The notes under the pieces were generated by a model. That model searched no databases. It was not told the DNA's origin and saw only the letters and a program-made list of their open reading frames with translations. 24,000 bases of DNA from Aerococcus urinaehominis (GTDB lineage Bacteria > Bacillota > Bacilli > Lactobacillales > Aerococcaceae). The stretch covers positions 950,387 to 974,386 of the forward strand of contig NZ_CP014163.1 in the NCBI RefSeq assembly GCF_001543245.1. Direction: 5' to 3'. Position numbers and translations under genes: made by a program. Below are positions 7,696 through 17,885 of this stretch, one piece after another. Each line of letters begins with the position of its first letter. Position 1 is the first letter of the stretch.

Positions 7696-8000
7696 AGCAA
7701 ATTTGCTAGTGTTTGCCCAAGTCGATCACGGTAAACGCTTAAATATAAATCAAAAGAACAAGCTTAGTATTTTAGCAATCTTACAGCCCCCTATATATAT
7801 AAATGATCTGGTTGAGTCACTTTAAAATATGACTATTTCGACTATGATCAAAAAAACACTAATTTTGGTTAAAATTACAGCATCACTTGACTAAAAATCT
7901 TCCTGAAAGACTGCTAATCATTAGGGGATTAATCACCCTTTCCTAATTCGAGATGAAGAACGGCTGATTGAAGAAAGACCGCGCCTTGTTGCTTACAATA

Positions 8001-8029
8001 TTGATAAAATAAATTTGTAATCGATTACT
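8001..8029 (+). promoter_or_regulatory. Putative promoter/operator of bacteriocin module 1; contains the 12-bp perfect palindrome GTAATCGATTAC (8017-8028)
   Basis: TTGATA (8001-8006), a 17-nt spacer, then ATTACT (8024-8029). The 14-nt string TGTAATCGATTACT is identical to 12155-12168, although the flanking spacer sequence differs. Confidence 0.35.
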
Positions 8030-8113
8030 TCAAGTTGAATCACTAATGTTACCATTTATTTTAAGGACTTGTTAGCCTTGCTAGTATGTTATACCTAGAA
8101 AGGAGTGGGTAGT

Positions 8114-8473
8114 GTGCAAGAAGCAGCAAAATATATGCGAATCTATGTATGGATGCGATCATTTATCAACCTAATTGGCATAACGAGCTTTGCTTGGGAC
8201 ATCTTTCTAGTAGCTGCTGTCGATTTATTCACTAACTACGACGATTTCCACCAAAAATTGCACGAAAATAAAAGTTTAATCTACGCCTTTAGCCAATTTA
8301 TCTGGCGTGGCTACGTTTTTTTAACCGGACTAGGCATGTTTACCAAGTTACTAAGAACAGGCCAGTTAATTTGGCAAGCAAGCGATGTCCTGTATGAACT
8401 TGGCTTTGTTGCGGTCCTAAGTTTACCTTTTACTATAATCATCTATATCGCCATTAGAAGGGGAGATATCTAA
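8114..8473 (+). CDS. 119-aa polytopic membrane protein, putative bacteriocin immunity protein (paralog A)
   Basis: Track ORF 8105..8473 trimmed to the GTG at 8114. AGGAG lies 8 nt upstream, and the length then matches the paralog at 12485. It has three to four hydrophobic segments. Its stop overlaps the next start (ATCTAATG). By eye it is roughly 60 percent identical to the 12485 product. Confidence 0.6.
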   Translation: MQEAAKYMRIYVWMRSFINLIGITSFAWDIFLVAAVDLFTNYDDFHQKLHENKSLIYAFSQFIWRGYVFLTGLGMFTKLLRTGQLIWQASDVLYELGFVAVLSLPFTIIIYIAIRRGDI

Positions 8474-8670
8474 TGAAAATCTTACATGAAACATCTATTA
8501 ATGAGGGGTTACTACTGCAAATTAAAGGCGGTGGTAAGCGAACTGATATTGCAGCTGGTATATTACATGGCGCTGCTGCTGGTTTTAAAGTTTGTCCCGC
8601 CGGCTATAAGACTGCTTGTGCTGTAGCTATTGGCGCAGCGGGAGCAGCTTATAGCGCTTGGGGAAATTAG
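8473..8670 (+). CDS. Double-glycine-leader class II bacteriocin precursor, LafX-like Gly/Ala-rich peptide (beta-1; 65 aa)
   Basis: Leader and mature peptide: MKILHETSINEGLLLQIKGG|GKRTDIAAGILHGAAAGFKVCPAGYKTACAVAIGAAGAAYSAWGN. Hydrophobic residues occupy -4, -7 and -12. The mature peptide has 2 Cys and GxxxG/AxxxA motifs. A GGGGAG Shine-Dalgarno lies inside the upstream gene. Confidence 0.85.
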   Translation: MKILHETSINEGLLLQIKGGGKRTDIAAGILHGAAAGFKVCPAGYKTACAVAIGAAGAAYSAWGN

Positions 8671-8758
8671 ATCTTATCATTATATAAAACAACCTTGTAT
8701 AGCCCCATCTTGCATGAACCACCTCCATTAAGTAAACAATAATATAAATAAATACTGA

Positions 8759-8793
8759 GACCGCCTATACTAGTTGTATAGGTGATCTTTTTT
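8759..8793 (+). terminator. Rho-independent terminator of module 1
   Basis: The stem pairs 8764-8770 with 8776-8782, with an imperfect extension. The loop is tagtt, followed by T6 (8788-8793). Confidence 0.55.
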
Positions 8794-8863
8794 ATATCCG
8801 TATCTTTGATTCCATTTTTTAAAGAAATCAGATGAGCTACATCTTCTATACTAAATTAATACA

Positions 8864-8896
8864 TAAAAATCCCCCTAAAGTAGTTTACCTTAGGGG
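8864..8896 (-). terminator. Terminator after the DUF975-like gene (end of the ABC operon)
   Basis: The 7-bp stem CCCCTAA/TTAGGGG pairs 8872-8878 with 8890-8896 around an 11-nt loop. It is followed on the minus strand by a T5 run. Confidence 0.5.
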
Positions 8897-8959
8897 AAGC
8901 ACATTAAATTCTAGATTCTCTCATTATATGAATATTGGCATCACTGTCGAGTTAGTTAA

Positions 8960-9583
8960 CTATGCCTGCACAGCTTGCCTGTAAAGAGCTATCATTTTTT
9001 CCTGATAGCTACGATAACTGGCAACCATTAGCGGGCTGGTTACGACAGTGGCTAGCAGCATAAAACATAGTAAAGGGGTCAGGCTAGCACCTGCTACACC
9101 TGGCTGGCGTAAAGGAGCTAGGAAAATCGGGTAGCCCAATAACAACATAGCTAGTTGCAGACCTGCAATTTTAAAAGAGCAAGTCAAACGGTAGCCACAT
9201 ATTTGCCAACGGTGACCCTTGGCTAGCTGCTGACTCTCTGCCAGTAATTTTCGTGAGCCACTGTCAGACCTATCCATCAACAGGTATGGCGCTAGGCTAT
9301 AATCCAATGACTTGATCACGCCAGGAACCACCAATAGTAATGACCATAAGCCCACTTTCACACAGGTAACTAGTTGTAGAAAGACGAAGCGACTTAGGTA
9401 ACTGGTAGGCTCCTGCCTAGAACCAGCAAACAACCGCCATAAACCAAGCGCCAAGACTAACTGTGCCAAAATATTAGCTAGTAGCCCCCAAAACTCATAG
9501 AAGCTCGTTAAGTAGACATTAGCCATTAAAAGTATTAGTAAATAGATCGCCAATAAACGGTTGGTTGTTAAAGTGAGTTTCAT
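8960..9583 (-). CDS. 207-aa polytopic membrane protein, DUF975-like; candidate immunity or partner protein for the upstream GG peptide
   Basis: Track ORF 8960..9667 trimmed to the ATG at 9583, with AGGAG 8 nt upstream. It has five to six hydrophobic segments. The segment VIKSLDYSLAPYLLMDRSDSGSRKLLAESQQLAKGHRWQ resembles the DUF975 core as I remember it, which has not been verified. Confidence 0.55.
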   Translation of the reverse strand: MKLTLTTNRLLAIYLLILLMANVYLTSFYEFWGLLANILAQLVLALGLWRLFAGSRQEPTSYLSRFVFLQLVTCVKVGLWSLLLVVPGVIKSLDYSLAPYLLMDRSDSGSRKLLAESQQLAKGHRWQICGYRLTCSFKIAGLQLAMLLLGYPIFLAPLRQPGVAGASLTPLLCFMLLATVVTSPLMVASYRSYQEKMIALYRQAVQA

Positions 9584-9611
9584 TTTCAAAGCTCCTATTT
9601 CTCTTAAATTT

Positions 9612-9788
9612 TTATTGGTAAACCTGAGCTGGACAATAAACGGCTGGGAATTTAATGCTTTGGGCAATTTCGGGCCTCATCTTACCGCTAGCAACTAAGT
9701 CAGCTATCCGAGCTTGCTGAGCCCTAATATTGGCACATAGATTGCCACCACGAACTAGTCCTAGCTGACGATTATCGAGCTTATTCAT
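9612..9788 (-). CDS. Double-glycine-leader peptide precursor (58 aa) with a hydrophilic, two-cysteine 43-aa mature part
   Basis: Track ORF 9612..9878 trimmed to the ATG at 9788, preceded by AGGAGGTGAT. The start overlaps the ABC stop by 8 nt (ATGAATAA). Sequence: MNKLDNRQLGLVRGG|NLCANIRAQQARIADLVASGKMRPEIAQSIKFPAVYCPAQVYQ. The leader has L-12, L-7 and V-4. Confidence 0.75.
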   Translation of the reverse strand: MNKLDNRQLGLVRGGNLCANIRAQQARIADLVASGKMRPEIAQSIKFPAVYCPAQVYQ

Positions 9789-11949
9789 CTGAATCACCTC
9801 CTGTCTGGTCTTGGCCATACATGGCCTGATAAAGTTCAGACTGCTGTAATAGAGTTTGCTGGTCACCGTCACCAACAATCCGTCCCTGGTCTAATAAAAT
9901 CACCCGGTCAAATTGGGCAACCAAGGGTAGATGATGGGCAATAAAAATAATGGTCTTGTCTAAAGAAAGTAAGTAACTAACCACCTGCTTTTCTAGGATG
10001 GGATCCATGGCACTAGTCGCCTCATCTAAGATATAAATATCTGCATCCCGTAACAAGGCACGAGCTAGGACAATCCTTTGTTTTTGCCCACCTGATAAGT
10101 TTTGACCCCCTTCTTCGAGCGGTTGGTCTAGCCCCAGCGAATGACTCAGGGCAAAATCTCTTAAGTCCAACTGATTCATGACATATTCAATGCGGCCGAA
10201 GCTAATCTGGTCCTCTTGGTCCAAGACCAAGTTATTATACAAACTCCCCTTTATAATAAAATTATCCTGGGGCAGGTAATAAATTCGCTCGCGAAGCGAT
10301 TGAATTTTCAAATCATTAATAGCAAGGTCCTCAAAACAGATTTGACCAGTTTGGGGACGATGGAGGGCAACTAGGAGTTTGGCCAGGCTAGACTTACCAG
10401 ACCCGCTAGGCCCTACCAAGGCTACTTTTTGCCCATAAGGGATGGTTAAATTAATATCTTCTAAGGTAATTTGATTAATATTATAGGCGAAGGACAGTTG
10501 GCAGATACTGATCTCCTTCTTCAAGTTATTCGTATAAATCCCATACTGGTTGCTTGCATACTCACTGTCAATTTCCAGGACCTCATTTAAACGCTGGTTG
10601 GCAACACCAGCTTCCTGGAGACTAGCTTGAAGCTTGAAAATATTTTGCAAGGGACCAGTAAAATAAACAACTAGGGCATTGTAAGTGATTAATTGCCCCA
10701 AAGTCAGCTGGCCTTGCATCACCAGATAAGCGCCATACCACAAGGTCAGGCTAGTTGTTAACAAACCAACCAATTCTTTGATACTTTCTTGCTTAATCTC
10801 TAAAACAGCTGTAATGAGCGCATCCCGCATGGTAACTAAAAACTGAAATCTTACTGCCTGCTTAGCAGCAGTCGTATAGTTATTGGTTTTTAGGCTCTCG
10901 ATTCCTTGTAAGTATTCAATAATCTTAGCGTTCAATTGACTTTGACTGGACATTTCTTCTCTGTTGGCCTGATCGAGTGGCTTAACAAATCGGTAGATGG
11001 CCAAGAAATAAAAAGGCAAAGAGAGTAAAGTTAATAAAAATAAAAAGCCATTTTGCCAGGCTAGTGTTAACCCAACAATAACCGCCATCCCAACATCTAA
11101 AACCAGGGTGATAGATGCTGAGCCTAGAGCATTGACAATTTTATTGGCATCTAAGAAGCGAGAGATAATGTCACCGGCCTGGCGGTTAGTAAAAAAATCT
11201 AAGGGTAGGTCTAAAACATGGTTAAAATAATCTAACATAATTGTTTGGCTCATCTCTTGACCCAAAATTACCAATAATTTGCTCCGAATGTATTTAAAAA
11301 TGACCATGGCCAAGTAGGCAGCTAATAAACCTAGAGAAAAAACATTTAGCCAGTGATAGTTGTTCCGAGGAATTAATTGGTCAATCAGTACTTGAAAATA
11401 AAAAGAAGACCCAATGCTAATAGCGATGACCACTATTGAAGCCAAAATAATTTTAGCCAGCAGGATTTTATTATCCATAATCAGTGAGAAAAACTGTGAT
11501 AGCCCTTTACTTTTATGAACTTGGATTTGATAATTTTCTCCTGGCGTCGGAATCAAGAGGACACCCGTCCAAATACTTGCAAAGTCAGCCAAGCTCATCT
11601 GTATTTTAGCTTCAGCCGGATCAGCAATTAACAGTTGGTCACCCTCTAGACCATAGACAACTAGGTAATGGAGTTGGTCACCTTCTTTAATGACATGGGC
11701 GATGGCCGGGAAGGACATGTCCGGATCTTGCCAAACAGTATTATCAGCCTCAACTGCCAAACAATCAAAGCCATAGCCCTCTAAGGCTATTTTCAGACCA
11801 TAGGCAGAAGTCCCCTGCTTATCTGTACCTGATTCTCGTCTTAACCGGTGTAAGGGCACCTGGCTGCCGTAATGGGCTAGGACCATGGCCAAACAGGCAA
11901 CACCACAATCACTCTGGTCCTGTTGGGCAATAAATTTAAATTTAGCCAT
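9781..11949 (-). CDS. Bacteriocin-processing ABC transporter with N-terminal C39 peptidase domain (722 aa; ComA/LagD/BlpA type)
   Basis: C39 catalytic Cys context QDQSDCGVACLAMVLAHYG and His context HYLVVYG. It has a six-TM ABC domain, Walker A GPSGSGKSS, signature LSGGQKQR and Walker B IYILDEATSAMD. GGGGGAG lies 6 nt before the ATG. Confidence 0.95.
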   Translation of the reverse strand: MAKFKFIAQQDQSDCGVACLAMVLAHYGSQVPLHRLRRESGTDKQGTSAYGLKIALEGYGFDCLAVEADNTVWQDPDMSFPAIAHVIKEGDQLHYLVVYGLEGDQLLIADPAEAKIQMSLADFASIWTGVLLIPTPGENYQIQVHKSKGLSQFFSLIMDNKILLAKIILASIVVIAISIGSSFYFQVLIDQLIPRNNYHWLNVFSLGLLAAYLAMVIFKYIRSKLLVILGQEMSQTIMLDYFNHVLDLPLDFFTNRQAGDIISRFLDANKIVNALGSASITLVLDVGMAVIVGLTLAWQNGFLFLLTLLSLPFYFLAIYRFVKPLDQANREEMSSQSQLNAKIIEYLQGIESLKTNNYTTAAKQAVRFQFLVTMRDALITAVLEIKQESIKELVGLLTTSLTLWYGAYLVMQGQLTLGQLITYNALVVYFTGPLQNIFKLQASLQEAGVANQRLNEVLEIDSEYASNQYGIYTNNLKKEISICQLSFAYNINQITLEDINLTIPYGQKVALVGPSGSGKSSLAKLLVALHRPQTGQICFEDLAINDLKIQSLRERIYYLPQDNFIIKGSLYNNLVLDQEDQISFGRIEYVMNQLDLRDFALSHSLGLDQPLEEGGQNLSGGQKQRIVLARALLRDADIYILDEATSAMDPILEKQVVSYLLSLDKTIIFIAHHLPLVAQFDRVILLDQGRIVGDGDQQTLLQQSELYQAMYGQDQTGGDSDE

Positions 11950-11985
11950 CTATAGCTCCCCCAAATTTTAAATCAGTTTTAGCTT

Positions 11986-12050
11986 ATTCTATCTATTTAA
12001 AAACAAAACTGTGATAATCCTTCCTAAACTGCTATTAATTTTTCATGAAT
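11986..12050 (-). promoter_or_regulatory. Candidate regulated promoter of the ABC operon with paired direct repeats
   Basis: Minus strand reads ATTCATGA (12050..12043), 13 nt, GTTTAGGA (12029..12022), 30 nt, then TAGAAT (11991..11986). The repeat starts are 21 bp apart, the same layout as at 16827-16890. Confidence 0.4.
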
Positions 12051-12139
12051 CGAACAGCATAGTATATTTAACTAACTTATTCACAGTTTAAGAAGAAAAA
12101 AAGTAATTTAATGAAGGTTTTTTCTAAGAACTTAAAATC

Positions 12140-12168
12140 TTGTTATACTAAAGATGTAATCGATTACT
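12140..12168 (+). promoter_or_regulatory. Putative promoter/operator of bacteriocin module 3; contains the palindrome GTAATCGATTAC (12156-12167)
   Basis: TTGTTA (12140-12145), a 17-nt spacer, then ATTACT (12163-12168). The geometry and palindrome match 8001-8029. Confidence 0.35.
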
Positions 12169-12235
12169 AAACGAACCTTGGCAACCAATGGAAGTTTTGT
12201 TAGTTAGCTAAGCCTAGTGAAAGGAGGTCGTCATA

Positions 12236-12454
12236 ATGAATTTTACAAAATTAGAAGATCAATCACTAAAATCAATTCGAGCCGGCCATAATAAGTGGCA
12301 GCAATTAGGAGAGGTGACTAAAGGAATGGTTGAGGTTGGTGCTGGTGGTGCAGCTTTAGGTAGTGTAGTCTGTGGACCTGGTTGTGCCGTTCTAGGTGGT
12401 TTAGCAGGTGTCGCTGTAGGTGGCGCCACAGGTGCCTTAGATGCCCAAAATTAA
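12236..12454 (+). CDS. AG-leader class IIb-type bacteriocin precursor, LafA/GatA-like (alpha; 72 aa)
   Basis: Sequence: MNFTKLEDQSLKSIRAG|HNKWQQLGEVTKGMVEVGAGGAALGSVVCGPGCAVLGGLAGVAVGGATGALDAQN. The leader has L-12, L-7 and I-4. The mature N-terminus xNxWQ and the VCGPGCAV motif recall lactacin F LafA (RNNWQTN...ICGPACAV) as I remember it. AAGGAGG lies 8 nt upstream. Confidence 0.85.
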   Translation: MNFTKLEDQSLKSIRAGHNKWQQLGEVTKGMVEVGAGGAALGSVVCGPGCAVLGGLAGVAVGGATGALDAQN

Positions 12455-12484
12455 AAAATTAAATTTTAAAAGGAGGTTGGCCCT

Positions 12485-12844
12485 ATGACAAAAGCAGCAA
12501 AATATATGCGTATCTATGTCTGGATTAGATTGTTGATCAACCTGCTAGGCATAACGAGCTTTGCTTGGGATATCCTTCTAGTAGCTGCTGTCCACTTATT
12601 TACCAGCTACAAAGATTTCCACAAAATTTTTCAAGCAAACAAAAACATGACCTATTTCTTCAGCCAAGCAATCTGGCGTGGCTATGTTGATTTAACTGGA
12701 GTAGCTATGCTTATCAGATTATTACAATCAGGTCAACTGTCCTGGCAAGCCAGTGATATTATTTATAACTTTGGTGGTATTATTTTGTTAAGTTTAATTT
12801 GTACTGGAATTACTTATATAGCTGTTAGAAGGGGAGATATCTAA
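12485..12844 (+). CDS. 119-aa polytopic membrane protein, putative immunity protein (paralog B)
   Basis: AGGAGG lies 8 nt upstream. It is a paralog of 8114..8473, sharing AAKYMRIYVW, ITSFAWDI, LVAAV, IWRGYV, SWQASD and RRGDI. Its stop overlaps the next ATG (TAATG). Confidence 0.65.
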   Translation: MTKAAKYMRIYVWIRLLINLLGITSFAWDILLVAAVHLFTSYKDFHKIFQANKNMTYFFSQAIWRGYVDLTGVAMLIRLLQSGQLSWQASDIIYNFGGIILLSLICTGITYIAVRRGDI

Positions 12845-13038
12845 TGAAAATTTTACATGAAAAAACTATTAAAGCAGAAAGACTACTAAAAATAAAAGGC
12901 GGTGGTAAGCGCACTGATGTGGCATCTAATATGCTGTCGTGGGCTGCAGCTGGCTACCGCATTTGTCCCGCCTATAAACCGGTCTGTGCCGTAGTTGGAG
13001 GAGCAGCCGGTGCAGCTTATGGCGCCTGGGGTAATTAA
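12844..13038 (+). CDS. Double-glycine-leader bacteriocin precursor (beta-2; 64 aa), paralog of 8473..8670
   Basis: Sequence: MKILHEKTIKAERLLKIKGG|GKRTDVASNMLSWAAAGYRICPAYKPVCAVVGGAAGAAYGAWGN. By eye it is roughly 70 percent identical to beta-1. Confidence 0.85.
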   Translation: MKILHEKTIKAERLLKIKGGGKRTDVASNMLSWAAAGYRICPAYKPVCAVVGGAAGAAYGAWGN

Positions 13039-13054
13039 TAATAAGTAAACAACA

Positions 13055-13094
13055 TAAAAAAACTTCGCTGAGCAACTCGCTAGCGAAGTTTTTT
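13055..13094. terminator. Bidirectional terminator between the convergent beta-2 and response regulator genes
   Basis: The stem CTTCGCT/AGCGAAG pairs 13063-13069 with 13082-13088. It is flanked by an A-run (13055-13062) and a T-run (13089-13094). Confidence 0.65.
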
Positions 13095-13848
13095 ATGTCT
13101 TATGTTTAGCTAATACAAATTTTTCTAACGCCACTTTCTTGCTGGCTGAGAAGGGTAATTGGTCACCATTATCAAGCGTGAGCAATCGCTTGTCACCATC
13201 AACCAAACGAATTTTATCGGGATTGATTAGGGTGCTACGACTAATACCAAATAAGTCTTGGGGATATTCCCTTTGGTAGGCTTTAATTTTGCCATAGAAC
13301 TGATAATGCCCGGTCTCTGTCACCAGTTCCAAACGGTGGGGCAGCGATGAGATCTGGATATAAATCACCTCATCAATTAAAAATCGATAGACTTTGTTGC
13401 CTATTTTAAAAGAAATCATAGGATCCTCTTGATTTGAAACGCTATTTTCTTGGTCCGTGATCAAATTTAAACACTGGAAAATTTCTTGACGCATCACCTC
13501 TTTATCACCCTTTTCAACTAGGGCAAAGGGTTCTACCTTGCGCTTCAAGACCATAGGAGCATATTTAGTATGGCTGGTAATAAAAATAATTTTACCAAAG
13601 GGATCTATCTGGCGAATCGCTGTTGCTAAATCAATGCCATTGGTGTCAAGGTTGCCTAATTCAATATCTAGAAAATAAACACCCAGTCTCACTTGATCTG
13701 CCTGAATCTGATTAAATAAGTCAGCTGGATCTGGACTGAAGCCCCCCATTTTATAAGCATGGTTATGAAAAAGGACATAATCTTTAATGATATCAGTAAT
13801 ATCTAGTAGCTGGATAGAATTATCGTCACAAATATAGATTGAGTGCAT
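13093..13848 (-). CDS. LytTR-family response regulator (251 aa; AgrA/ComE/PlnC type)
   Basis: The receiver domain has the phospho-acceptor context VYFLDIEL. The C-terminal LytTR domain reads ISFKIGNKVYRFLIDEVIYIQ...FGISRSTLINPDKI. TAGGAGG lies 5 nt upstream. Confidence 0.9.
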   Translation of the reverse strand: MHSIYICDDNSIQLLDITDIIKDYVLFHNHAYKMGGFSPDPADLFNQIQADQVRLGVYFLDIELGNLDTNGIDLATAIRQIDPFGKIIFITSHTKYAPMVLKRKVEPFALVEKGDKEVMRQEIFQCLNLITDQENSVSNQEDPMISFKIGNKVYRFLIDEVIYIQISSLPHRLELVTETGHYQFYGKIKAYQREYPQDLFGISRSTLINPDKIRLVDGDKRLLTLDNGDQLPFSASKKVALEKFVLAKHKT

Positions 13849-15112
13849 AAAAACCTCCTAAGGGGCTGTGATAATCAATTGAACAGAAAAAGTGTTAGCT
13901 TGATTTTCAAGATGTATAAAAAGATTAGGATATTTCTTGGCGATACGCCGCAAATTAGACAAACCCAAACCCGTATGATTGGCTTTACTAGAAAAGCCCT
14001 TAATTTGAATTTTTTCTAAATCAATCGCTTGATTTAAAGAGTTTTCAATATAAATTTCAATTTGATTGCCTTCTAAATAAAACAAGATATTGATTTGACG
14101 AGCCTGGTTCTGATCAGCTACCGCCTCAAGCGCATTGTCTAATAAAATTCCTAGAATACGAATCAGGTCATAGTCAGCAAGATAAAAATCCTGTATATTA
14201 TGCGGACATTCAAAATAAACCAAGACTCCCTTGTCTGCAATCAAATAGAATTTTTCTAGTAGCAGGGCTTTTACATAAGGATTTTTTACCTTAGTAAGAT
14301 CTAAAATTTTATCATTTTTGATATCTAACTCTCTTTTTGAGTAGCTATCCAAGCCTGCTACAAATTCTAATAAATCATCTATACGATTATCATTCAAAAG
14401 AGATTTAACAGTAGTCAATAGATTCTTATAATCATGCCTAAAGGCCCTTATTTTATCTTGGCTTGCTTCTAGTTGGTCTACATATTTAGCCATATTATCT
14501 AGTCGAGCCTCCATTAACTTATGCTCGTATTCTCTCCTGTTATTTTGCAAGATAACAAATACAAACACTGCCACAACTATAATCTGCAAAACAAAAAAAT
14601 AGAAAGACTCCTGTACCCGATTTTGAGAACCTGCACTCGTAGGAAGTATAATATTATTGTAGAACCCAAGTATGTTCAGCAAAGCGAATATACTATAATT
14701 AACCAGAGGAAGTAGCGGATTTTTAAAATATGGCGAATTGATGTATCGCTTTGTCACAACTAAAGTCAAAATACACACTAGCAAACTAGGGATTAATCGC
14801 TTCAAGTAGTCAAAAAATATTATTTGCGAAACATCCTCTATTGCTTGACTCATCAAATAATTTCCTGCCACATAATCAAAGCATTCCAAAATAAATTGTG
14901 GCATTAGTGTAGCAAAAATGATCTGTGATGACTCCCTTTTTTTGAATTATATAAAAAGAAAAGGAATATGGCATAGAGAATATCGATTAAATTTACGGTA
15001 TTAAAAGGCAATAAATTGAGTAGTGAATTAAGAAAAATAAAAGGATATATGCTTACTAGGCCAATTCCAATTTTTCTTAATTTAAAATCATCTAACAGGT
15101 AAGCTGTTCCCA

Positions 15113-15120
15113 AACATCTA
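15113..15120. repeat. Target-site duplication, left copy (AACATCTA; possibly 9 bp with the A at 15112)
   Basis: Identical to 16446-16453 and immediately flanks the IS inverted repeats. Confidence 0.8.
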
Positions 15121-16445
15121 GATTAAGTCCATATAATTGTGTAAAAAGAAAAACCATAATAATCTTTTTTGGTTACAATGTAATTGGCTAAAACACATTG
15201 AAAGGAAGATTATTATGGCTCAACTAAATATTACCCTAAACTTAGAAGAAATTACAGAGGCAGTTCTAAACAGTGATATGGATCAGATGATGAAGTCCCT
15301 AACTGTAACCATCTTTAATGCCTATATGCAAGCAGAGCGTGAGGAATTTATTAATGCTAAGCGCTATGAGCGCACAGATGACCGGAAAGATTATCGTAAT
15401 GGCTCCTATAAAAGAAACTTTAAAACAAAGGTAGGGACTGTTGAACTGGATGTCCCTCGGACACGATCAGGAGAATTTGATACCAAGCTATTCGATAAAT
15501 ATCAACGTATGGACAAGGCCTTTGTGGCTGTTTTAACCGAAATGTATATTAATGGGGTCTCAACACGCCGTATTAAGAAGGTTGTTGAAACACTCTGTGG
15601 CGAAGGTGTTTCTAAATCATTTGTCTCTTCAGTAAATAAAAACTTGGACCCTGCTGTTTTCGAATTTAAAGGGCGTTCCCTAACACATACGAATTTTCGA
15701 TATGTTTATGTCGATGCCATGTATATTAAAGTTCGCGAAAACCATCGTTCTGTCTCTAAAGGTGTTTATATTGCTCAGGGTATTAACGATGATAATCGTC
15801 GCGAAATTATCGGCTTTATGATTGCTGATAATGAATCAGAAGAAAACTGGAAGAACTTCTTCCTTGATTTAAAGGCCAGAGGCCTAACTAAACCAACATT
15901 AATTATATCTGACGCCCACAAGGGACTAAAATCAGCGATTAGTAATCAATTTTTAGGCACTACCTGGCAACGGTGTACGGTTCATTTTCTACGTAATATT
16001 TTAGCTCATTTTCCAAAAAAGGATTGCAGTCATGAGAGAAGTCTTCTAAAGAGAATATTTAATGCTGATAGTCAACAAAGAGCGCGAGAGTTAAAATTTG
16101 AATTTGTAGAATACGTTAGTGGCAATGAGAAATATGACAAAGCTGTTAATACGCTAGAGGAAGGCTTCGAAGATGCTATCCCATACTTATTAGAACCCAC
16201 ACCTTATCGCGTTTCACTGAAAACAACTAACAGTCTAGAAAGGCTAAATCGAGAAATTAGAAGAAGAGAGAAAGTTGTCGGCCTCTTTCCTAATATAGAG
16301 GCTGCGGAGCGACTTATAGGAAGTGTATTGCTTGATTTGCATGAATATTGGGAGACATGTCCTCATAAATTCTTTAATAACATAGTCTAAATATTTATAC
16401 CCACCAATTACATTCTATAATTTACACAAGATTGTGGACTTGACA
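15121..16445 (+). mobile_element. IS256-family insertion sequence (about 1.3 kb)
   Basis: Imperfect terminal inverted repeats: left gattAAGTCCAtataaTTGTGTAAA (15121-15145), against the right-end reverse complement tgtcAAGTCCAcaatcTTGTGTAAA (16445-16421). It has a single transposase ORF and a perfect 8-9 bp direct repeat of the target. Confidence 0.85.
15215..16390 (+). CDS. IS256-family (mutator-type) DDE transposase (391 aa)
   Basis: Track ORF 15137..16390 trimmed to the ATG at 15215 (GAAAGGAAG upstream). MAQLNITLNLEE...YERTDDRKDYRNGSYKRNFKTKVGTVELDVPRTRSGEF...VYVDAMYIKVRE...ISDAHKGL...WQRCTVHFLRN is a typical IS256-family sequence. Confidence 0.9.
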   Translation: MAQLNITLNLEEITEAVLNSDMDQMMKSLTVTIFNAYMQAEREEFINAKRYERTDDRKDYRNGSYKRNFKTKVGTVELDVPRTRSGEFDTKLFDKYQRMDKAFVAVLTEMYINGVSTRRIKKVVETLCGEGVSKSFVSSVNKNLDPAVFEFKGRSLTHTNFRYVYVDAMYIKVRENHRSVSKGVYIAQGINDDNRREIIGFMIADNESEENWKNFFLDLKARGLTKPTLIISDAHKGLKSAISNQFLGTTWQRCTVHFLRNILAHFPKKDCSHERSLLKRIFNADSQQRARELKFEFVEYVSGNEKYDKAVNTLEEGFEDAIPYLLEPTPYRVSLKTTNSLERLNREIRRREKVVGLFPNIEAAERLIGSVLLDLHEYWETCPHKFFNNIV

Positions 16446-16453
16446 AACATCTA
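16446..16453. repeat. Target-site duplication, right copy (AACATCTA)
   Basis: Identical to 15113-15120. Confidence 0.8.
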
Positions 16454-16511
16454 AAAGCAAAAACGGCTACTATTCTTAATAAAAAGGCCCAAAGTGTCAT
16501 ATCTATACTAC

Positions 16512-16640
16512 TTATTTGATACGGCATTGTCTTAATAGATTAAAAATCAGCGCACAATTTTTTTCTTTAGAATTAGCCTGGTTATAGTTGAAAACGCCAC
16601 CTTTAATTAATTTAAGTTGATTAATTGCTATTTTTTTCAA
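16512..16640 (-). CDS. Putative inducer-peptide (pheromone) precursor with double-glycine leader (42 aa, TTG start)
   Basis: Not in the ORF track. AAGGAG (16654..16649) lies 8 nt before the TTG at 16640. Sequence: MKKIAINQLKLIKGG|VFNYNQANSKEKNCALIFNLLRQCRIK. The 3' end overlaps the kinase start (16527) by 16 nt, which is the classic IP-HK-RR gene order. Confidence 0.7.
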   Translation of the reverse strand: MKKIAINQLKLIKGGVFNYNQANSKEKNCALIFNLLRQCRIK

Positions 16641-16813
16641 AATAAACACTCCTTTAATATTTAAAATTCTGCACTAAAAATTCATTTCAATGGCACGATA
16701 GTATATAATACTCACTTCTTACTAGATATATATTAATTGTCAAAAAAATATTTAGCTACTCAATCATCTTATCAGTAAATGAGTACTACTTTATAGCCCC
16801 CCCCTCACAAACC

Positions 16814-16890
16814 ATTCAAGAGATAAATTCAAGAACTAAATACTTGCATTCAGGAAACATTCTCCCTTCTCTCAATATAGTTGTTATAAT
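16814..16890 (+). promoter_or_regulatory. Candidate LytTR-regulated promoter: three ATTCA(A/G)GA direct repeats plus an extended -10
   Basis: ATTCAAGA occurs at 16814-16821 and 16827-16834, and ATTCAGGA at 16848-16855. The last two starts are 21 bp apart. TGTTATAAT lies at 16882-16890, 37 nt after the last repeat start. No good -35 is present. Confidence 0.5.
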
Positions 16891-16933
16891 AATGTTGTAA
16901 GCAGTTACAAAGTTTTTTGAAAGGAGCTTTCCG

Positions 16934-17106
16934 ATGCAAAATGATAAGTCATTACCTGATGAGTGGTTAAAAAAGTCCGTGGTGGTTCCAATGATTACAT
17001 CTGGACCCAAATAGGTCGGCATGCTGGTAATTTTATGAATTGTATGGACAAGCCTGTTAGCACCGACCCCTTCGTTTCTGCCGGTTACTGTATTGGTCCA
17101 AAATGA
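16934..17106 (+). pseudogene. Frameshifted double-glycine-leader bacteriocin precursor
   Basis: Not in the track. GAAAGGAG lies 7 nt before the ATG at 16934. As written, the frame stops after 26 codons. Adding one A to the A6 run (16969-16974) gives MQNDKSLPDEWLKKVRGG|SNDYIWTQIGRHAGNFMNCMDKPVSTDPFVSAGYCIGPK, with L-12, L-7 and V-4, ending at 17106. Confidence 0.6.
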
Positions 17107-17130
17107 GTGATTTAAACTAGGAGGATTATC

Positions 17131-17289
17131 ATGAAAAAATATCATACCTTGAAAAAATCAGAATTGATGCAAATCAAAGCTGGAGGTGCTGCTTTGAATA
17201 TTATCTCAACCATTGGTAGTTTTCTTATAGCTGACGCTTGGAGACATAGCGATCAAATTAGGGAGGGCTACCAACAAACGCGCCACTAG
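17131..17289 (+). CDS. GG/AG-leader bacteriocin-like peptide precursor (52 aa)
   Basis: Not in the track. AGGAGG lies 6 nt before the ATG. Sequence: MKKYHTLKKSELMQIKAG(G)|AALNIISTIGSFLIADAWRHSDQIREGYQQTRH. The LxxSELxxIxAG leader fits the consensus if cleavage follows AG. Confidence 0.75.
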   Translation: MKKYHTLKKSELMQIKAGGAALNIISTIGSFLIADAWRHSDQIREGYQQTRH

Positions 17290-17315
17290 TAACATATAAA
17301 TGAAGGATGATTACT

Positions 17316-17528
17316 ATGAAAAAGGGATTAATTGAGGATTTAAAAGTGATTATAGCAACCTTCATCTTTGGTCTAGCCTGGCTGCTAATCACTAGCTACA
17401 TATCAGGAAGTCAACCTCTGCTAGTAGCTGAAGATTATAAATTTCTCTTTACCTATACCTTTATTGTATCGGTCGTGTTCATAGGCAGCCGTCTAATTAA
17501 AGGTCAAAAAACTAATAAAAGTAATTAA
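17316..17528 (+). CDS. Small two-TM membrane protein (70 aa), putative immunity protein of the 16934/17131 peptide pair
   Basis: Track ORF 17307..17528 trimmed to the ATG at 17316, with AAGGA 8 nt upstream. It has two hydrophobic helices and a basic C-terminus. It is the last gene before the terminator. Confidence 0.55.
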   Translation: MKKGLIEDLKVIIATFIFGLAWLLITSYISGSQPLLVAEDYKFLFTYTFIVSVVFIGSRLIKGQKTNKSN

Positions 17529-17532
17529 TTAA

Positions 17533-17560
17533 AGTAGCCCGCAACCGGGCTACTTTTATA
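17533..17560 (+). terminator. Rho-independent terminator
   Basis: The 9-bp stem AGTAGCCCG/CGGGCTACT pairs 17533-17541 with 17546-17554. The loop is caac, followed by TTTTATATTTT. Confidence 0.7.
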
Positions 17561-17598
17561 TTTTCAGCGCAAGATCTGCTAAATTAGTCCCCAATCTA

Positions 17599-17715
17599 TC
17601 AGGCACAAATTTTACCATAACAGGCCCGCAACCAATCCCAGGCTTTCTTTAGGTCCTGAACGCCTCCAAAGCCCGCTTTAACTTGTCTGAGCTCTTGATT
17701 AGATAAAGTTTTCAT
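17599..17715 (-). CDS. Orphan AG-leader peptide precursor (38 aa)
   Basis: Not in the track. AAAGGAGGGGG lies upstream of the ATG at 17715. Sequence: MKTLSNQELRQVKAG|FGGVQDLKKAWDWLRACYGKICA. The leader matches the LSxxELxxVxxG consensus exactly apart from Ala at -2. The mature 23-mer ends in C-x5-C-A. Confidence 0.65.
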   Translation of the reverse strand: MKTLSNQELRQVKAGFGGVQDLKKAWDWLRACYGKICA

Positions 17716-17841
17716 CAACTTCCCCCTCCTTTAATTGTATATACAATTCCATAATAAACCAAGTCTGTTTTAACTCTGATTAGTCTTCTTAAATCTGCTT
17801 TTTTTATTCCTGAACGAAAACTGTTGGTATCATTAGCTAAC

Positions 17842-17885
17842 AAAATAGCACCCTAGCGAAACTATCCTGCTAAGGTGCTATTTTT
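17842..17885 (-). terminator. Terminator after the distal metQ-like gene
   Basis: The 8-bp stem ATAGCACC/GGTGCTAT pairs 17845-17852 with 17874-17881, with further inner pairing. It is flanked by A and T runs and lies 12 nt after the stop at 17897. Confidence 0.55.

What the first reader, a model, noticed from the sequence alone, without database searches (positions are those of the whole stretch)
8114..13038. Duplicated, diverged two-gene module: a 119-aa membrane protein translationally coupled to a GG peptide, with unusual gene order and one orphan copy
Regions 8114-8670 and 12485-13038 are paralogous. Each encodes a 119-aa polytopic membrane protein whose stop overlaps the ATG of a roughly 65-aa GG peptide through the same junction (GGGGAGATATCTAATGAAAAT). 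By eye the proteins are about 60 percent identical and the peptides about 70 percent. The 5' ends are much more conserved at the nucleotide level than the middles, which suggests diversifying evolution or gene conversion. In lactacin F-type loci the order is peptide, peptide, immunity. Here the immunity-like gene comes before its peptide. In the second copy it sits between a LafA-like alpha peptide (12236) and the beta peptide, whereas the first copy has no alpha partner at all. So the beta peptides may act alone, each with a cognate upstream immunity gene. Alternatively, the membrane protein is not an immunity protein but a dedicated partner of unknown function. I recognise no family for the 119-aa protein. 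The two copies are direct repeats flanking the ABC operon, so homologous recombination between them could delete the exporter.
Basis: partly seen in the sequence, partly recalled or inferred. Interest (0 to 1): 0.7.

Follow-up and report, generated by a model that had tools for sequence, protein, structure and literature searches.

The report
Duplicated immunity-like gene plus bacteriocin peptide
An Aerococcus urinaehominis bacteriocin island carries two diverged copies of a small membrane-protein gene fused stop-to-start with a lactacin-F-type toxin peptide; the membrane protein has no detectable relatives and is most likely a new self-immunity protein placed before its peptide rather than after it, which is an interesting variant but not a new kind of system.

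Summary
Windows 8114-8670 and 12485-13038 each encode a 119-aa membrane protein whose stop overlaps the ATG of a 65/64-aa double-glycine peptide, through an identical 27-nt junction. The proteins are 65% identical and the peptides 66%. dN/dS is 0.29 and 0.28, so all four genes are under purifying, not diversifying, selection.

The upstream 72-aa peptide is a LafA homologue (E=6e-9). The coupled peptides are LafX homologues (E=2e-6). The exporter is 39% identical to the lactacin F ABC transporter. This is therefore a lactacin-F-type class IIb locus in Aerococcus urinaehominis.

The 119-aa protein is an orphan. It has no Pfam, NCBIfam or PDB match, nothing among 1.84 billion protein representatives, and no similarity to LafI (Pfam DUF5504).

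It is the only membrane protein in either transcription unit, and it was duplicated and diverged together with its peptide. The best reading is a cognate immunity protein of a new sequence family, in the order alpha-immunity-beta. Copy 1 looks like a copy that lost alpha. An immunity-like gene ahead of its peptide has a precedent (plnM-plnN).

The locus's sensor kinase is broken by an IS256-family insertion plus a frameshift, so the system may be silent in this strain. Interest is moderate to low. Function is inferred, not shown.

The parts
7940..8029 (+). Promoter region of transcription unit 1. It has an extended -10 (TGATAAAAT, about 8001-8009) and the palindrome GTAATCGATTAC at 8017-8028.
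   Evidence: 38-nt block 7992-8029 is 82% identical to 12131-12168 (D4). The upstream 52 nt are 46% identical ungapped to 12080-12131, reached by 1 of 2000 shuffles. The palindrome occurs exactly twice in the window.
8030..8113 (+). 5' leader of unit 1, resembling the leader and ribosome-binding site that precede alpha in unit 2. This is the putative scar of an alpha deletion.
   Evidence: Local alignment with 12169-12238 scores 35.5 against shuffles of 23.7 +/- 4.2; 3 of 500 shuffles reach it.
8114..8473 (+). Membrane protein copy 1 (119 aa, GTG start; AWM75_04330), a putative immunity protein.
   Evidence: Three hydrophobic segments.
8473..8670 (+). beta-1, a 65-aa GG-leader peptide of LafX type (leader MKILHETSINEGLLLQIKGG).
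   Evidence: Pfam Bacteriocin_IIc 19.5 bits.
8757..8789 (+). Intrinsic terminator of unit 1.
   Evidence: Fold energy -16.2 kcal/mol, z = -4.4.
8960..9586 (-). 207-aa polytopic membrane protein, DUF975-like, last gene of the ABC operon. It is the candidate immunity protein for the 58-aa peptide.
   Evidence: Pfam DUF975 30.4 bits, below the cut-off. Listed as DUF975 in the gene call.
9612..9788 (-). 58-aa GG-leader peptide (MNKLDNRQLGLVRGG...). Its start overlaps the end of the ABC gene.
9781..11949 (-). C39-peptidase ABC exporter (722 aa) that would cleave and export the GG peptides.
   Evidence: Pfam Peptidase_C39, ABC_membrane and ABC_tran. 39% identical over its full length to the lactacin F operon transporter (E=6e-173).
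12020..12095 (.). Divergent control region with two exact copies of CAGTTTARGAAG (12020-12031 on the minus strand, 12084-12095 on the plus strand). These are candidate response-regulator boxes.
   Evidence: Two exact 12-mers lie within one 286-nt intergenic region.
12080..12168 (+). Promoter region of transcription unit 2. It has an extended -10 (TGTTATACT) and the palindrome GTAATCGATTAC at 12156-12167.
12236..12454 (+). alpha, a 72-aa LafA-type peptide. Its leader ends in AG (IRAG|HNKWQQ).
   Evidence: 37% identical to LafA over 54 aa, E=6e-9. Pfam Bacteriocin_IIc 16.7 bits.
12485..12844 (+). Membrane protein copy 2 (119 aa; AWM75_04355), a putative immunity protein.
12844..13038 (+). beta-2, a 64-aa GG-leader peptide of LafX type.
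   Evidence: 30% identical to LafX over 54 aa, E=2e-6. Pfam Bacteriocin_IIc 27.0 bits against a cut-off of 27.1.
13052..13098 (.). Bidirectional intrinsic terminator between unit 2 and the response-regulator gene.
   Evidence: Fold energy -21.9 kcal/mol, z = -6.6.
13093..13848 (-). LytTR-type response regulator (251 aa).
   Evidence: Pfam LytTR 56 bits; NCBIfam AgrA-like 104 bits.
13858..15120 (-). AgrC/PlnB-type histidine kinase body, with a -1 frameshift in the homopolymer at 14937-14943.
   Evidence: Pfam HATPase_c_5 57.9 bits. Frame analysis.
15121..16444 (+). IS256-family insertion sequence (1324 bp) inside the kinase gene, flanked by a 9-bp target duplication AAACATCTA.
   Evidence: Transposase_mut 428 bits. 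Terminal inverted repeats. Target duplication and ORF restoration.
16445..16649 (-). Kinase N-terminus (16527 down to 16445) and the upstream induction-peptide-like GG peptide at 16512-16649 (MFILKKIAINQLKLIKGG|VFNYNQANSKEKNCALIFNLLRQCRIK).

Best explanation
The 119-aa proteins are most likely producer self-immunity proteins of a previously undescribed sequence family. They belong to a lactacin-F-type (class IIb, two-peptide) bacteriocin system of Aerococcus urinaehominis.

Proposed mechanism:
1. A quorum-sensing LytTR regulator switches on two small operons.
2. Unit 2 makes alpha (LafA-like), then the membrane protein, then beta-2 (LafX-like).
3. Unit 1 makes a second membrane protein and beta-1.
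4. Ribosomes finishing the membrane-protein gene re-initiate on the overlapping peptide ATG. A toxin precursor is therefore not made without its protector being made first, and in fixed proportion.
5. The C39-ABC exporter removes the GG (or AG) leaders and secretes the peptides.
6. The membrane protein stays in the producer membrane and blocks pore formation by its cognate beta (with alpha), probably by binding the peptide or the peptide-target complex within the bilayer.

The ancestral unit was promoter-alpha-immunity-beta-terminator. It was duplicated as a block, and copy 1 later lost alpha. Beta-1 then either pairs with the single alpha or serves as a spare toxin/immunity cassette.

Shown: the coding status of all four genes, the coupling signals, block co-duplication, LafA/LafX/exporter homology, and the absence of any other membrane protein in either unit.

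Inferred: the immunity function, its specificity, the pairing of alpha with either beta, and the direction of the alpha gain or loss.
For: - Real, constrained genes: dN/dS is 0.29 for the membrane gene and 0.28 for the peptide, with the same dS (0.79) in both, so they were duplicated together.
- Coupling: ATCTAATG overlap, with GGGGAG embedded in a 27-nt identical junction.
- Class IIb context: alpha vs LafA E=6e-9; beta-2 vs LafX E=2e-6; exporter 39% identical to the laf transporter; Pfam Bacteriocin_IIc hits for all three peptides.
- Each unit is bounded by a shared promoter block and a strong terminator, and holds no other candidate immunity gene.
- Small polytopic membrane protein with three hydrophobic segments. 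Its size matches that of LafI (124 aa).
- Known class IIb operons carry a linked immunity gene (PMC5093712; PMC3546714).
- An immunity-like gene preceding a GG peptide is known from plnM-plnN (PMC3769724).
- Copy 1's leader resembles the alpha leader, and its promoter is homologous to that of unit 2.
Against: - There is no functional evidence.
- The protein has no detectable homologue at all. The exhaustive HMMER profile search of 1.84 billion representatives returned only itself. There is no Pfam, NCBIfam or PDB match and no plasmid hit. The role therefore rests on context only.
- It shows no similarity to LafI/DUF5504.
- Its hydropathy pattern (two strong segments and one weak one) differs from LafI's four clear helices.
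- The AF2 model was unusable (pLDDT 48.7).
- The family is known from one species, essentially one strain sequence, so conservation of the arrangement cannot be tested.
- The sensor kinase is disrupted, so the locus may be decaying. However, dN/dS shows past constraint.
Confidence: 0.62

Rival explanations
1. The 119-aa protein is the immunity protein for the upstream alpha peptide, or for alpha acting alone, following the canonical peptide-then-immunity order. Under this reading the coupled downstream beta is a separate one-peptide bacteriocin or enhancer. Copy 1 would then be an orphan immunity gene that protects against alpha-type peptides made by neighbours.
For: In unit 2 the membrane gene directly follows alpha, which is the canonical order seen in lafA-lafX-lafI and sakT-alpha/beta-IT. 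By established knowledge, orphan immunity genes are common in such islands.
Against: The membrane gene has its own ribosome-binding site 30 nt after alpha, but is physically coupled to beta in both copies. It co-diverged with beta (same dS and dN). Copy 1 kept beta and lost alpha. Alpha and beta are homologues of partners that act together.
Confidence: 0.15
2. The membrane protein is not an immunity factor. It is a dedicated partner of the beta peptide with another role, for example a membrane chaperone or export adaptor that replaces the missing HlyD-type accessory protein, or a redox helper for the peptide's two cysteines.
For: No HlyD-like accessory gene lies next to the ABC exporter, unlike the laf operon. 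Copy 1 has a weak MauE (redox-associated membrane protein) hit, 14.5 bits, E=0.045. Both betas keep two cysteines.
Against: The MauE hit is far below the cut-off (27 bits) and is absent in copy 2, which instead hits ORMDL weakly; this pattern is typical of chance matches between hydrophobic proteins. A general export or redox helper would not need to be duplicated and diverged alongside each peptide. Under this reading the operons would have no immunity gene at all.
Confidence: 0.1
3. The modules are decaying remnants of a bacteriocin island with no current function. The regulator is broken, alpha is lost from one copy, and alpha's leader ends in AG instead of GG.
For: The histidine kinase is split by an IS256-family element with an intact 9-bp target duplication, and carries a homopolymer frameshift. 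The same sequence is found in an independent assembly. The family is seen in no other genome.
Against: All five small ORFs are intact, with good ribosome-binding sites and terminators. dN/dS near 0.3 shows long-term purifying selection since the duplication. The intact target duplication suggests the IS insertion is recent. Past function is therefore not in doubt; only present expression in this strain is.
Confidence: 0.13

Closest known systems
Lactacin F operon lafA-lafX-lafI of Lactobacillus johnsonii (recovered here as metagenome locus L086)
   Same: Alpha is homologous to LafA (37% over 54 aa, E=6e-9), including the CGP(G/A)CAV motif. Beta is collinear with LafX (30%, E=2e-6), sharing the glycine-rich C-terminus. 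Both have a C39-ABC exporter, 39% identical. Both operons contain a small membrane protein of about 120 aa.
   Different: The order is alpha-membrane-beta (and membrane-beta alone in copy 1) instead of A-X-I. The membrane protein has no similarity to LafI/DUF5504 and a different hydropathy pattern. It is translationally coupled to the following peptide. There is no HlyD-type accessory gene. The module is duplicated.
plnMNOP operon of Lactiplantibacillus plantarum C11
   Same: A probable immunity gene (plnM) lies in front of a GG-leader bacteriocin-like peptide gene (plnN), within a quorum-sensing-regulated multi-bacteriocin locus (PMC3769724).
   Different: No PlnM sequence was available to compare directly. 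The exhaustive homology search found no relative of any kind. PlnN has no demonstrated activity and is not LafX-like as far as is known. No stop/start coupling or duplication has been described for it.
Streptococcal blp/spb class IIb loci (BlpMN, SpbMN)
   Same: Two-peptide GG bacteriocins, linked immunity, a C39-ABC exporter, peptide pheromone/HK/LytTR-RR control, and frequent natural inactivation of regulatory or export genes (PMC5093712; PMC4860687 listed).
   Different: In these loci immunity is encoded downstream of the peptide pair. The peptides and immunity proteins are unrelated in sequence to those here.

Membership tests
Class IIb lactacin-F-type two-peptide bacteriocin (LafA/LafX; Pfam PF10439 Bacteriocin_IIc) | N-terminal double-glycine-type leader cleaved by a C39 ABC exporter | tested here: met
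   Beta-1 and beta-2 leaders end in IKGG with hydrophobic residues at -4, -7 and -12. Alpha aligns its IRAG with LafA's VVGG, so its site is AG, a variant. A C39-ABC exporter lies in the locus.
Class IIb lactacin-F-type two-peptide bacteriocin (LafA/LafX; Pfam PF10439 Bacteriocin_IIc) | Sequence similarity to family members | tested here: met
   Pairwise BLASTP gives alpha-LafA E=6e-9 and beta-2-LafX E=2e-6. The Pfam scores are 27.0, 19.5 and 16.7 bits against a cut-off of 27.1, so by Pfam's own threshold all three fall just below or below.
Class IIb lactacin-F-type two-peptide bacteriocin (LafA/LafX; Pfam PF10439 Bacteriocin_IIc) | Two complementary peptide genes in one operon | tested here: inconclusive
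   Met for unit 2 (alpha and beta-2, though separated by the membrane gene). Not met for unit 1, which has beta-1 only.
Class IIb lactacin-F-type two-peptide bacteriocin (LafA/LafX; Pfam PF10439 Bacteriocin_IIc) | Antimicrobial activity that requires both peptides | not testable with these tools
   Needs synthetic or expressed peptides and indicator strains.
LafI-type immunity protein (Pfam PF17608, DUF5504) | Sequence match to DUF5504 / LafI | tested here: not met
   LafI from L086 scores 92.8 bits on DUF5504. The 119-aa proteins give no DUF5504 hit at E<=1. BLASTP against LafI gives E=2.1 and hhalign gives a probability of 0.1%.
LafI-type immunity protein (Pfam PF17608, DUF5504) | Gene located downstream of the second peptide gene | tested here: not met
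   The gene lies upstream of beta in both copies. A terminator follows beta directly.
LafI-type immunity protein (Pfam PF17608, DUF5504) | About 120 aa with four transmembrane helices | tested here: inconclusive
   The size matches (119 vs 124 aa). Kyte-Doolittle analysis gives three segments (two strong, one weak) against four clear ones in LafI. No dedicated topology predictor was available.
CAAX-protease/Abi-type immunity (PlnI/PlnL; Pfam PF02517) | Match to the Rce1-like/Abi domain | tested here: not met
   No such hit at E<=1. The protein is also half the usual size.
MauE/DoxX redox-associated membrane proteins (Pfam PF07291) | Match above the family threshold | tested here: not met
   14.5 bits against a cut-off of 27, in copy 1 only. 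Copy 2 does not hit it.
Bacteriocin immunity protein (functional class) | Confers specific protection against the cognate bacteriocin | not testable with these tools
   Support comes from context only: same operon, coupling and co-duplication.

The most novel reading that the evidence does not exclude
The 119-aa protein founds a new immunity family used in an 'immunity-first, translationally locked' design. In this design a single LafA-type alpha peptide can combine with either of two diverged LafX-type beta peptides. Each beta is hard-wired to its own protector, giving a combinatorial two-peptide bacteriocin with two specificities from three peptides.
Probability: 0.25. Interest if true: 0.5.

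Novelty: new variant of a known kind. Interest (0 to 1): 0.33.

Why it matters
If the 119-aa proteins are immunity factors, they add a sequence family with no known relatives to the poorly understood class IIb immunity proteins. They would also show that the canonical 'peptides first, immunity last' order is not obligatory, since here the protector is translated first and the toxin is coupled to it.

The pair of diverged immunity/beta modules sharing one alpha would be a compact natural system for mapping what determines immunity specificity and alpha-beta pairing.

It would also be one of the first described bacteriocin systems in Aerococcus, a urinary-tract genus. The library search found no paper on A. 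urinaehominis bacteriocins.

If the locus is silent because of the IS insertion, it is instead an example of a bacteriocin island caught early in decay.

Tried and rejected
- Homology searches for the 119-aa protein found nothing. These were Pfam and NCBIfam, the word-indexed 5.8-billion-protein search, an exhaustive HMMER profile search of 1.84 billion representatives, a PDB profile search at E<=10 and plasmid tblastn.
- One search failed to return the 65%-identical paralogue, although that protein is in the collection. That tool's negative results are therefore weak. One search is the one that counts.
- Searches with beta-2 and alpha returned only the query proteins themselves.
- Genome-collection scans with the beta and membrane-protein alignments returned no relatives and did not return the source genome either. 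They are uninformative beyond showing no near-identical copies elsewhere.
- A metagenome scan for the beta C-terminal motif found 0 hits.
- A metagenome scan for the LafA motif gave mostly chance hits in GC-rich DNA, but also two lafA loci, one of which (L086) carries the laf operon.
- Diversifying selection was rejected.
- Gene conversion at the 5' end was considered but is not supported statistically.
- The weak MauE and ORMDL hits were rejected as inconsistent between the two paralogues.
- The palindrome as an RNA hairpin was rejected because it has no stable fold.
- A search for 19-23-nt-spaced direct repeats typical of LytTR sites gave only partial patterns. The CAGTTTARGAAG box is exact only in the ABC/alpha intergenic region.
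- No extra copies or remnants of alpha, beta or the membrane gene exist elsewhere in the window.

Full report
**What is there**

The window comes from Aerococcus urinaehominis. The second 119-aa protein is AWM75_04355 and the first is AWM75_04330.

- Copy 1: a 119-aa ORF at 8114-8473 (GTG start, AAGGAG 8 nt upstream) runs into a 65-aa ORF at 8473-8670.
- Copy 2: a 119-aa ORF at 12485-12844 (ATG start, GGAGG upstream) runs into a 64-aa ORF at 12844-13038.
- In both copies the TAA stop overlaps the next ATG (ATCTAATG).
- A 27-nt run is identical in both copies (TTAGAAGGGGAGATATCTAATGAAAAT). It places a GGGGAG ribosome-binding site inside the last codons (RRGDI) of the upstream gene.

The membrane proteins are 65% identical without gaps (E=2e-56). 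The peptides are 43/65 identical. Overall nucleotide identity is 73%. An independent gene caller made the same calls.

**Are the genes real, and how do they evolve?**

A Nei-Gojobori analysis gives dN/dS = 0.29 for the membrane gene (dS 0.80, dN 0.23) and 0.28 for the peptide (dS 0.79, dN 0.22).
- All four ORFs are therefore protein-coding and under purifying selection.
- The equal dS values show that the membrane gene and peptide were duplicated as one block.
- The 5' ~120 nt of the membrane gene are more conserved (83-93% nucleotide identity) than the 3' third (53-63%).
- dN/dS is about 0.2 in both parts, so this is not diversifying selection.
- The excess of unchanged synonymous codons at the 5' end is not significant (Fisher p=0.098), so gene conversion cannot be claimed.

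**Extent of the duplication**

- A 38-nt promoter block (7992-8029 vs 12131-12168, 82% identical) holds an extended -10. Just downstream of it lies a perfectly conserved palindrome, GTAATCGATTAC.
- Weaker homology extends another ~52 nt upstream (1 of 2000 shuffles reach it).
- In copy 2 this promoter drives the order alpha (12236-12454), membrane gene, beta-2.
- In copy 1 the promoter is followed after 84 nt by the membrane gene.
- That 84-nt leader resembles the leader and ribosome-binding site of alpha (3 of 500 shuffles reach the score).
- No alpha remnant exists anywhere else in the window.
- Each unit ends in a strong intrinsic terminator: 8757-8789 (z = -4.4) and 13052-13098 (z = -6.6).

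The simplest history is a duplicated promoter-alpha-membrane-beta-terminator unit, with alpha cleanly deleted from copy 1. The reverse, insertion of alpha into copy 2, cannot be excluded.

**What the peptides are**

A metagenome scan for the CGP(G/A)CAV motif recovered the Lactobacillus johnsonii-type lactacin F operon as locus L086: ABC transporter, HlyD-like accessory gene, lafA, lafX and lafI.
- Alpha is 37% identical to LafA over 54 aa (E=6e-9).
- Beta-2 is collinear with LafX (30% over 54 aa, E=2e-6).
- The window's 722-aa C39-ABC exporter is 39% identical over its full length to the laf transporter.
- All three peptides hit Pfam Bacteriocin_IIc at or below its threshold (27.0, 19.5 and 16.7 bits against 27.1).
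- The beta leaders end in IKGG, with hydrophobic residues at -4, -7 and -12.
- Alpha's cleavage site, aligned to LafA's GG, is AG.

This is therefore a lactacin-F-type class IIb system. It sits in a ~10-kb, lower-GC island. The island also holds:
- a 58-aa GG peptide coupled to the exporter gene, followed by a DUF975-like membrane protein;
- a LytTR response regulator;
- an AgrC-type kinase;
- an induction-peptide-like gene;
- two further GG peptides, one of which is followed in the canonical order by a 73-aa two-helix protein.

**What the 119-aa protein is**

It has no detectable relatives.
- There are no significant Pfam or NCBIfam matches. The only hits are inconsistent sub-threshold ones: MauE at 14.5 bits in copy 1 and ORMDL at 18.7 bits in copy 2.
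- An exhaustive HMMER profile search of 1.84 billion cluster representatives found nothing but itself.
- Nothing was found in the PDB or in plasmids.
- All copies are singleton clusters from A. urinaehominis.
- LafI belongs to Pfam DUF5504 (92.8 bits). The 119-aa proteins do not hit that family, and direct comparison with LafI is null (BLASTP E=2.1; hhalign probability 0.1%).
- Hydropathy shows three hydrophobic segments (about 16-36, 55-80 and 96-114; the middle one is weak), against four clear ones in LafI.
- The AF2 model from the two-sequence alignment was unusable (pLDDT 48.7), so no fold search was run.

**Most likely function**

Each transcription unit contains only GG peptides and this membrane protein. 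Known class IIb operons carry a linked immunity gene. Here the membrane gene is physically coupled to beta in both copies and has diverged in step with it.

I therefore read it as the cognate immunity protein. It would be translated first, with beta translated by re-initiating ribosomes, so the toxin precursor is never made without its protector. I put this at about 0.6.

Rivals are:
- immunity directed at the upstream alpha, following the canonical order (0.15);
- a non-immunity partner such as an export or redox helper, in a locus that notably lacks a HlyD-type accessory gene (0.1);
- present-day decay of the locus (0.13).

By homology the beta peptides are the LafX-type complementary half.

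**Comparison with what is known**

The system works like lactacin F or gassericin-type class IIb loci, and the peptides and exporter are homologous to them. The membrane protein is not a member of the LafI/DUF5504 family, the CAAX/Abi family or any other described immunity family. The gene order, alpha-immunity-beta with stop/start coupling, departs from the A-X-I order.

An immunity-like gene ahead of a GG peptide is not unprecedented. In plnMNOP, plnM is considered a probable immunity gene and precedes plnN (PMC3769724). Immunity proteins of class II bacteriocins are notoriously diverse, so an orphan family is not in itself surprising. I class this as a new variant of a known kind.

**Caveats and side observations**

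- The quorum-sensing kinase is doubly inactivated. A 1324-bp IS256-family element (15121-16444; Transposase_mut 428 bits; terminal inverted repeats; 9-bp target duplication AAACATCTA) splits it after about codon 28. Removing the element and one duplicate restores the reading frame. A -1 frameshift also sits in the A7 run at 14937-14943.
- An independent assembly is 100% identical over 12,986 nt. The locus may therefore be uninducible in this strain.
- Homologous recombination between the two modules would delete the exporter operon and alpha. With 73% identity and perfect runs of at most 27 nt, it should be rare.
- No paper on A. urinaehominis bacteriocins was found.

Noticed in passing
window 15121-16444, with flanks 15112-15120 and 16445-16453: An IS256-family insertion sequence (1324 bp; transposase at 15137-16390) with terminal inverted repeats and a 9-bp target duplication AAACATCTA sits inside the bacteriocin-locus histidine kinase gene. 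Removing it in silico restores the ORF (MPYQ...FRCLGTAYLL...).
   Followed up: yes
window 14937-14943: A second lesion in the same kinase: a -1 frameshift in an A7 homopolymer (T7 on the plus strand). An A8 run would join the 69-aa and 348-aa fragments. The sequence is identical in an independent assembly (FNHJ01000018).
   Followed up: partly
window 8017-8028 and 12156-12167: A perfect 12-nt palindrome, GTAATCGATTAC, is conserved just downstream of the -10 box of both peptide operons while the flanks diverge. It does not form a stable RNA hairpin, so it is more likely an operator for an unidentified dimeric DNA-binding protein.
   Followed up: partly
window 12020-12031 (-) and 12084-12095 (+); also about 17790 (-): The exact 12-mer CAGTTTARGAAG occurs twice in the divergent ABC/alpha intergenic region, each copy facing its own promoter. 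A one-base-longer version (CAGATTTAAGAAG) lies upstream of the 39-aa GG peptide. These are candidate LytTR response-regulator boxes. The copy-1 promoter has only a degenerate version.
   Followed up: partly
window 12236-12454: The alpha peptide's leader ends in Ala-Gly (IRAG|HNKWQQ) where LafA has Gly-Gly. This is a non-consensus cleavage site that might affect processing by the C39 exporter.
   Followed up: no
window 8960-9788 (-): A 58-aa GG-leader peptide (mature part has two Cys and no family match) starts inside the last codons of the ABC exporter gene. It is followed by a 207-aa DUF975-like polytopic membrane protein. This may be another toxin/immunity pair, or a pheromone with its partner.
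   Followed up: no
window 16512-16649 (-), 17131-17528 (+), 17599-17718 (-): There are three more GG-leader peptides. One is induction-factor-like and lies upstream of the broken kinase. One is a 52-aa peptide followed in canonical order by a 73-aa two-helix membrane protein. One is a 39-aa peptide with a GFGG site and two Cys.
   Followed up: no
window 8960-11949: No HlyD/ComB-type accessory gene accompanies the C39-ABC exporter. The homologous lactacin F operon (L086 2410-3003) has one, with a HlyD_3 hit.
   Followed up: partly
window about 7700-17880: The whole bacteriocin island has lower G+C (32-44%) than the flanking glycogen-metabolism and MetQ/amidohydrolase genes (43-49%). This is consistent with horizontal acquisition.
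   Followed up: no
tool behaviour: The word-indexed protein search did not return the 65%-identical paralogue (P0004) even though it is in the collection. Negative results from that tool alone should not be trusted.
   Followed up: yes
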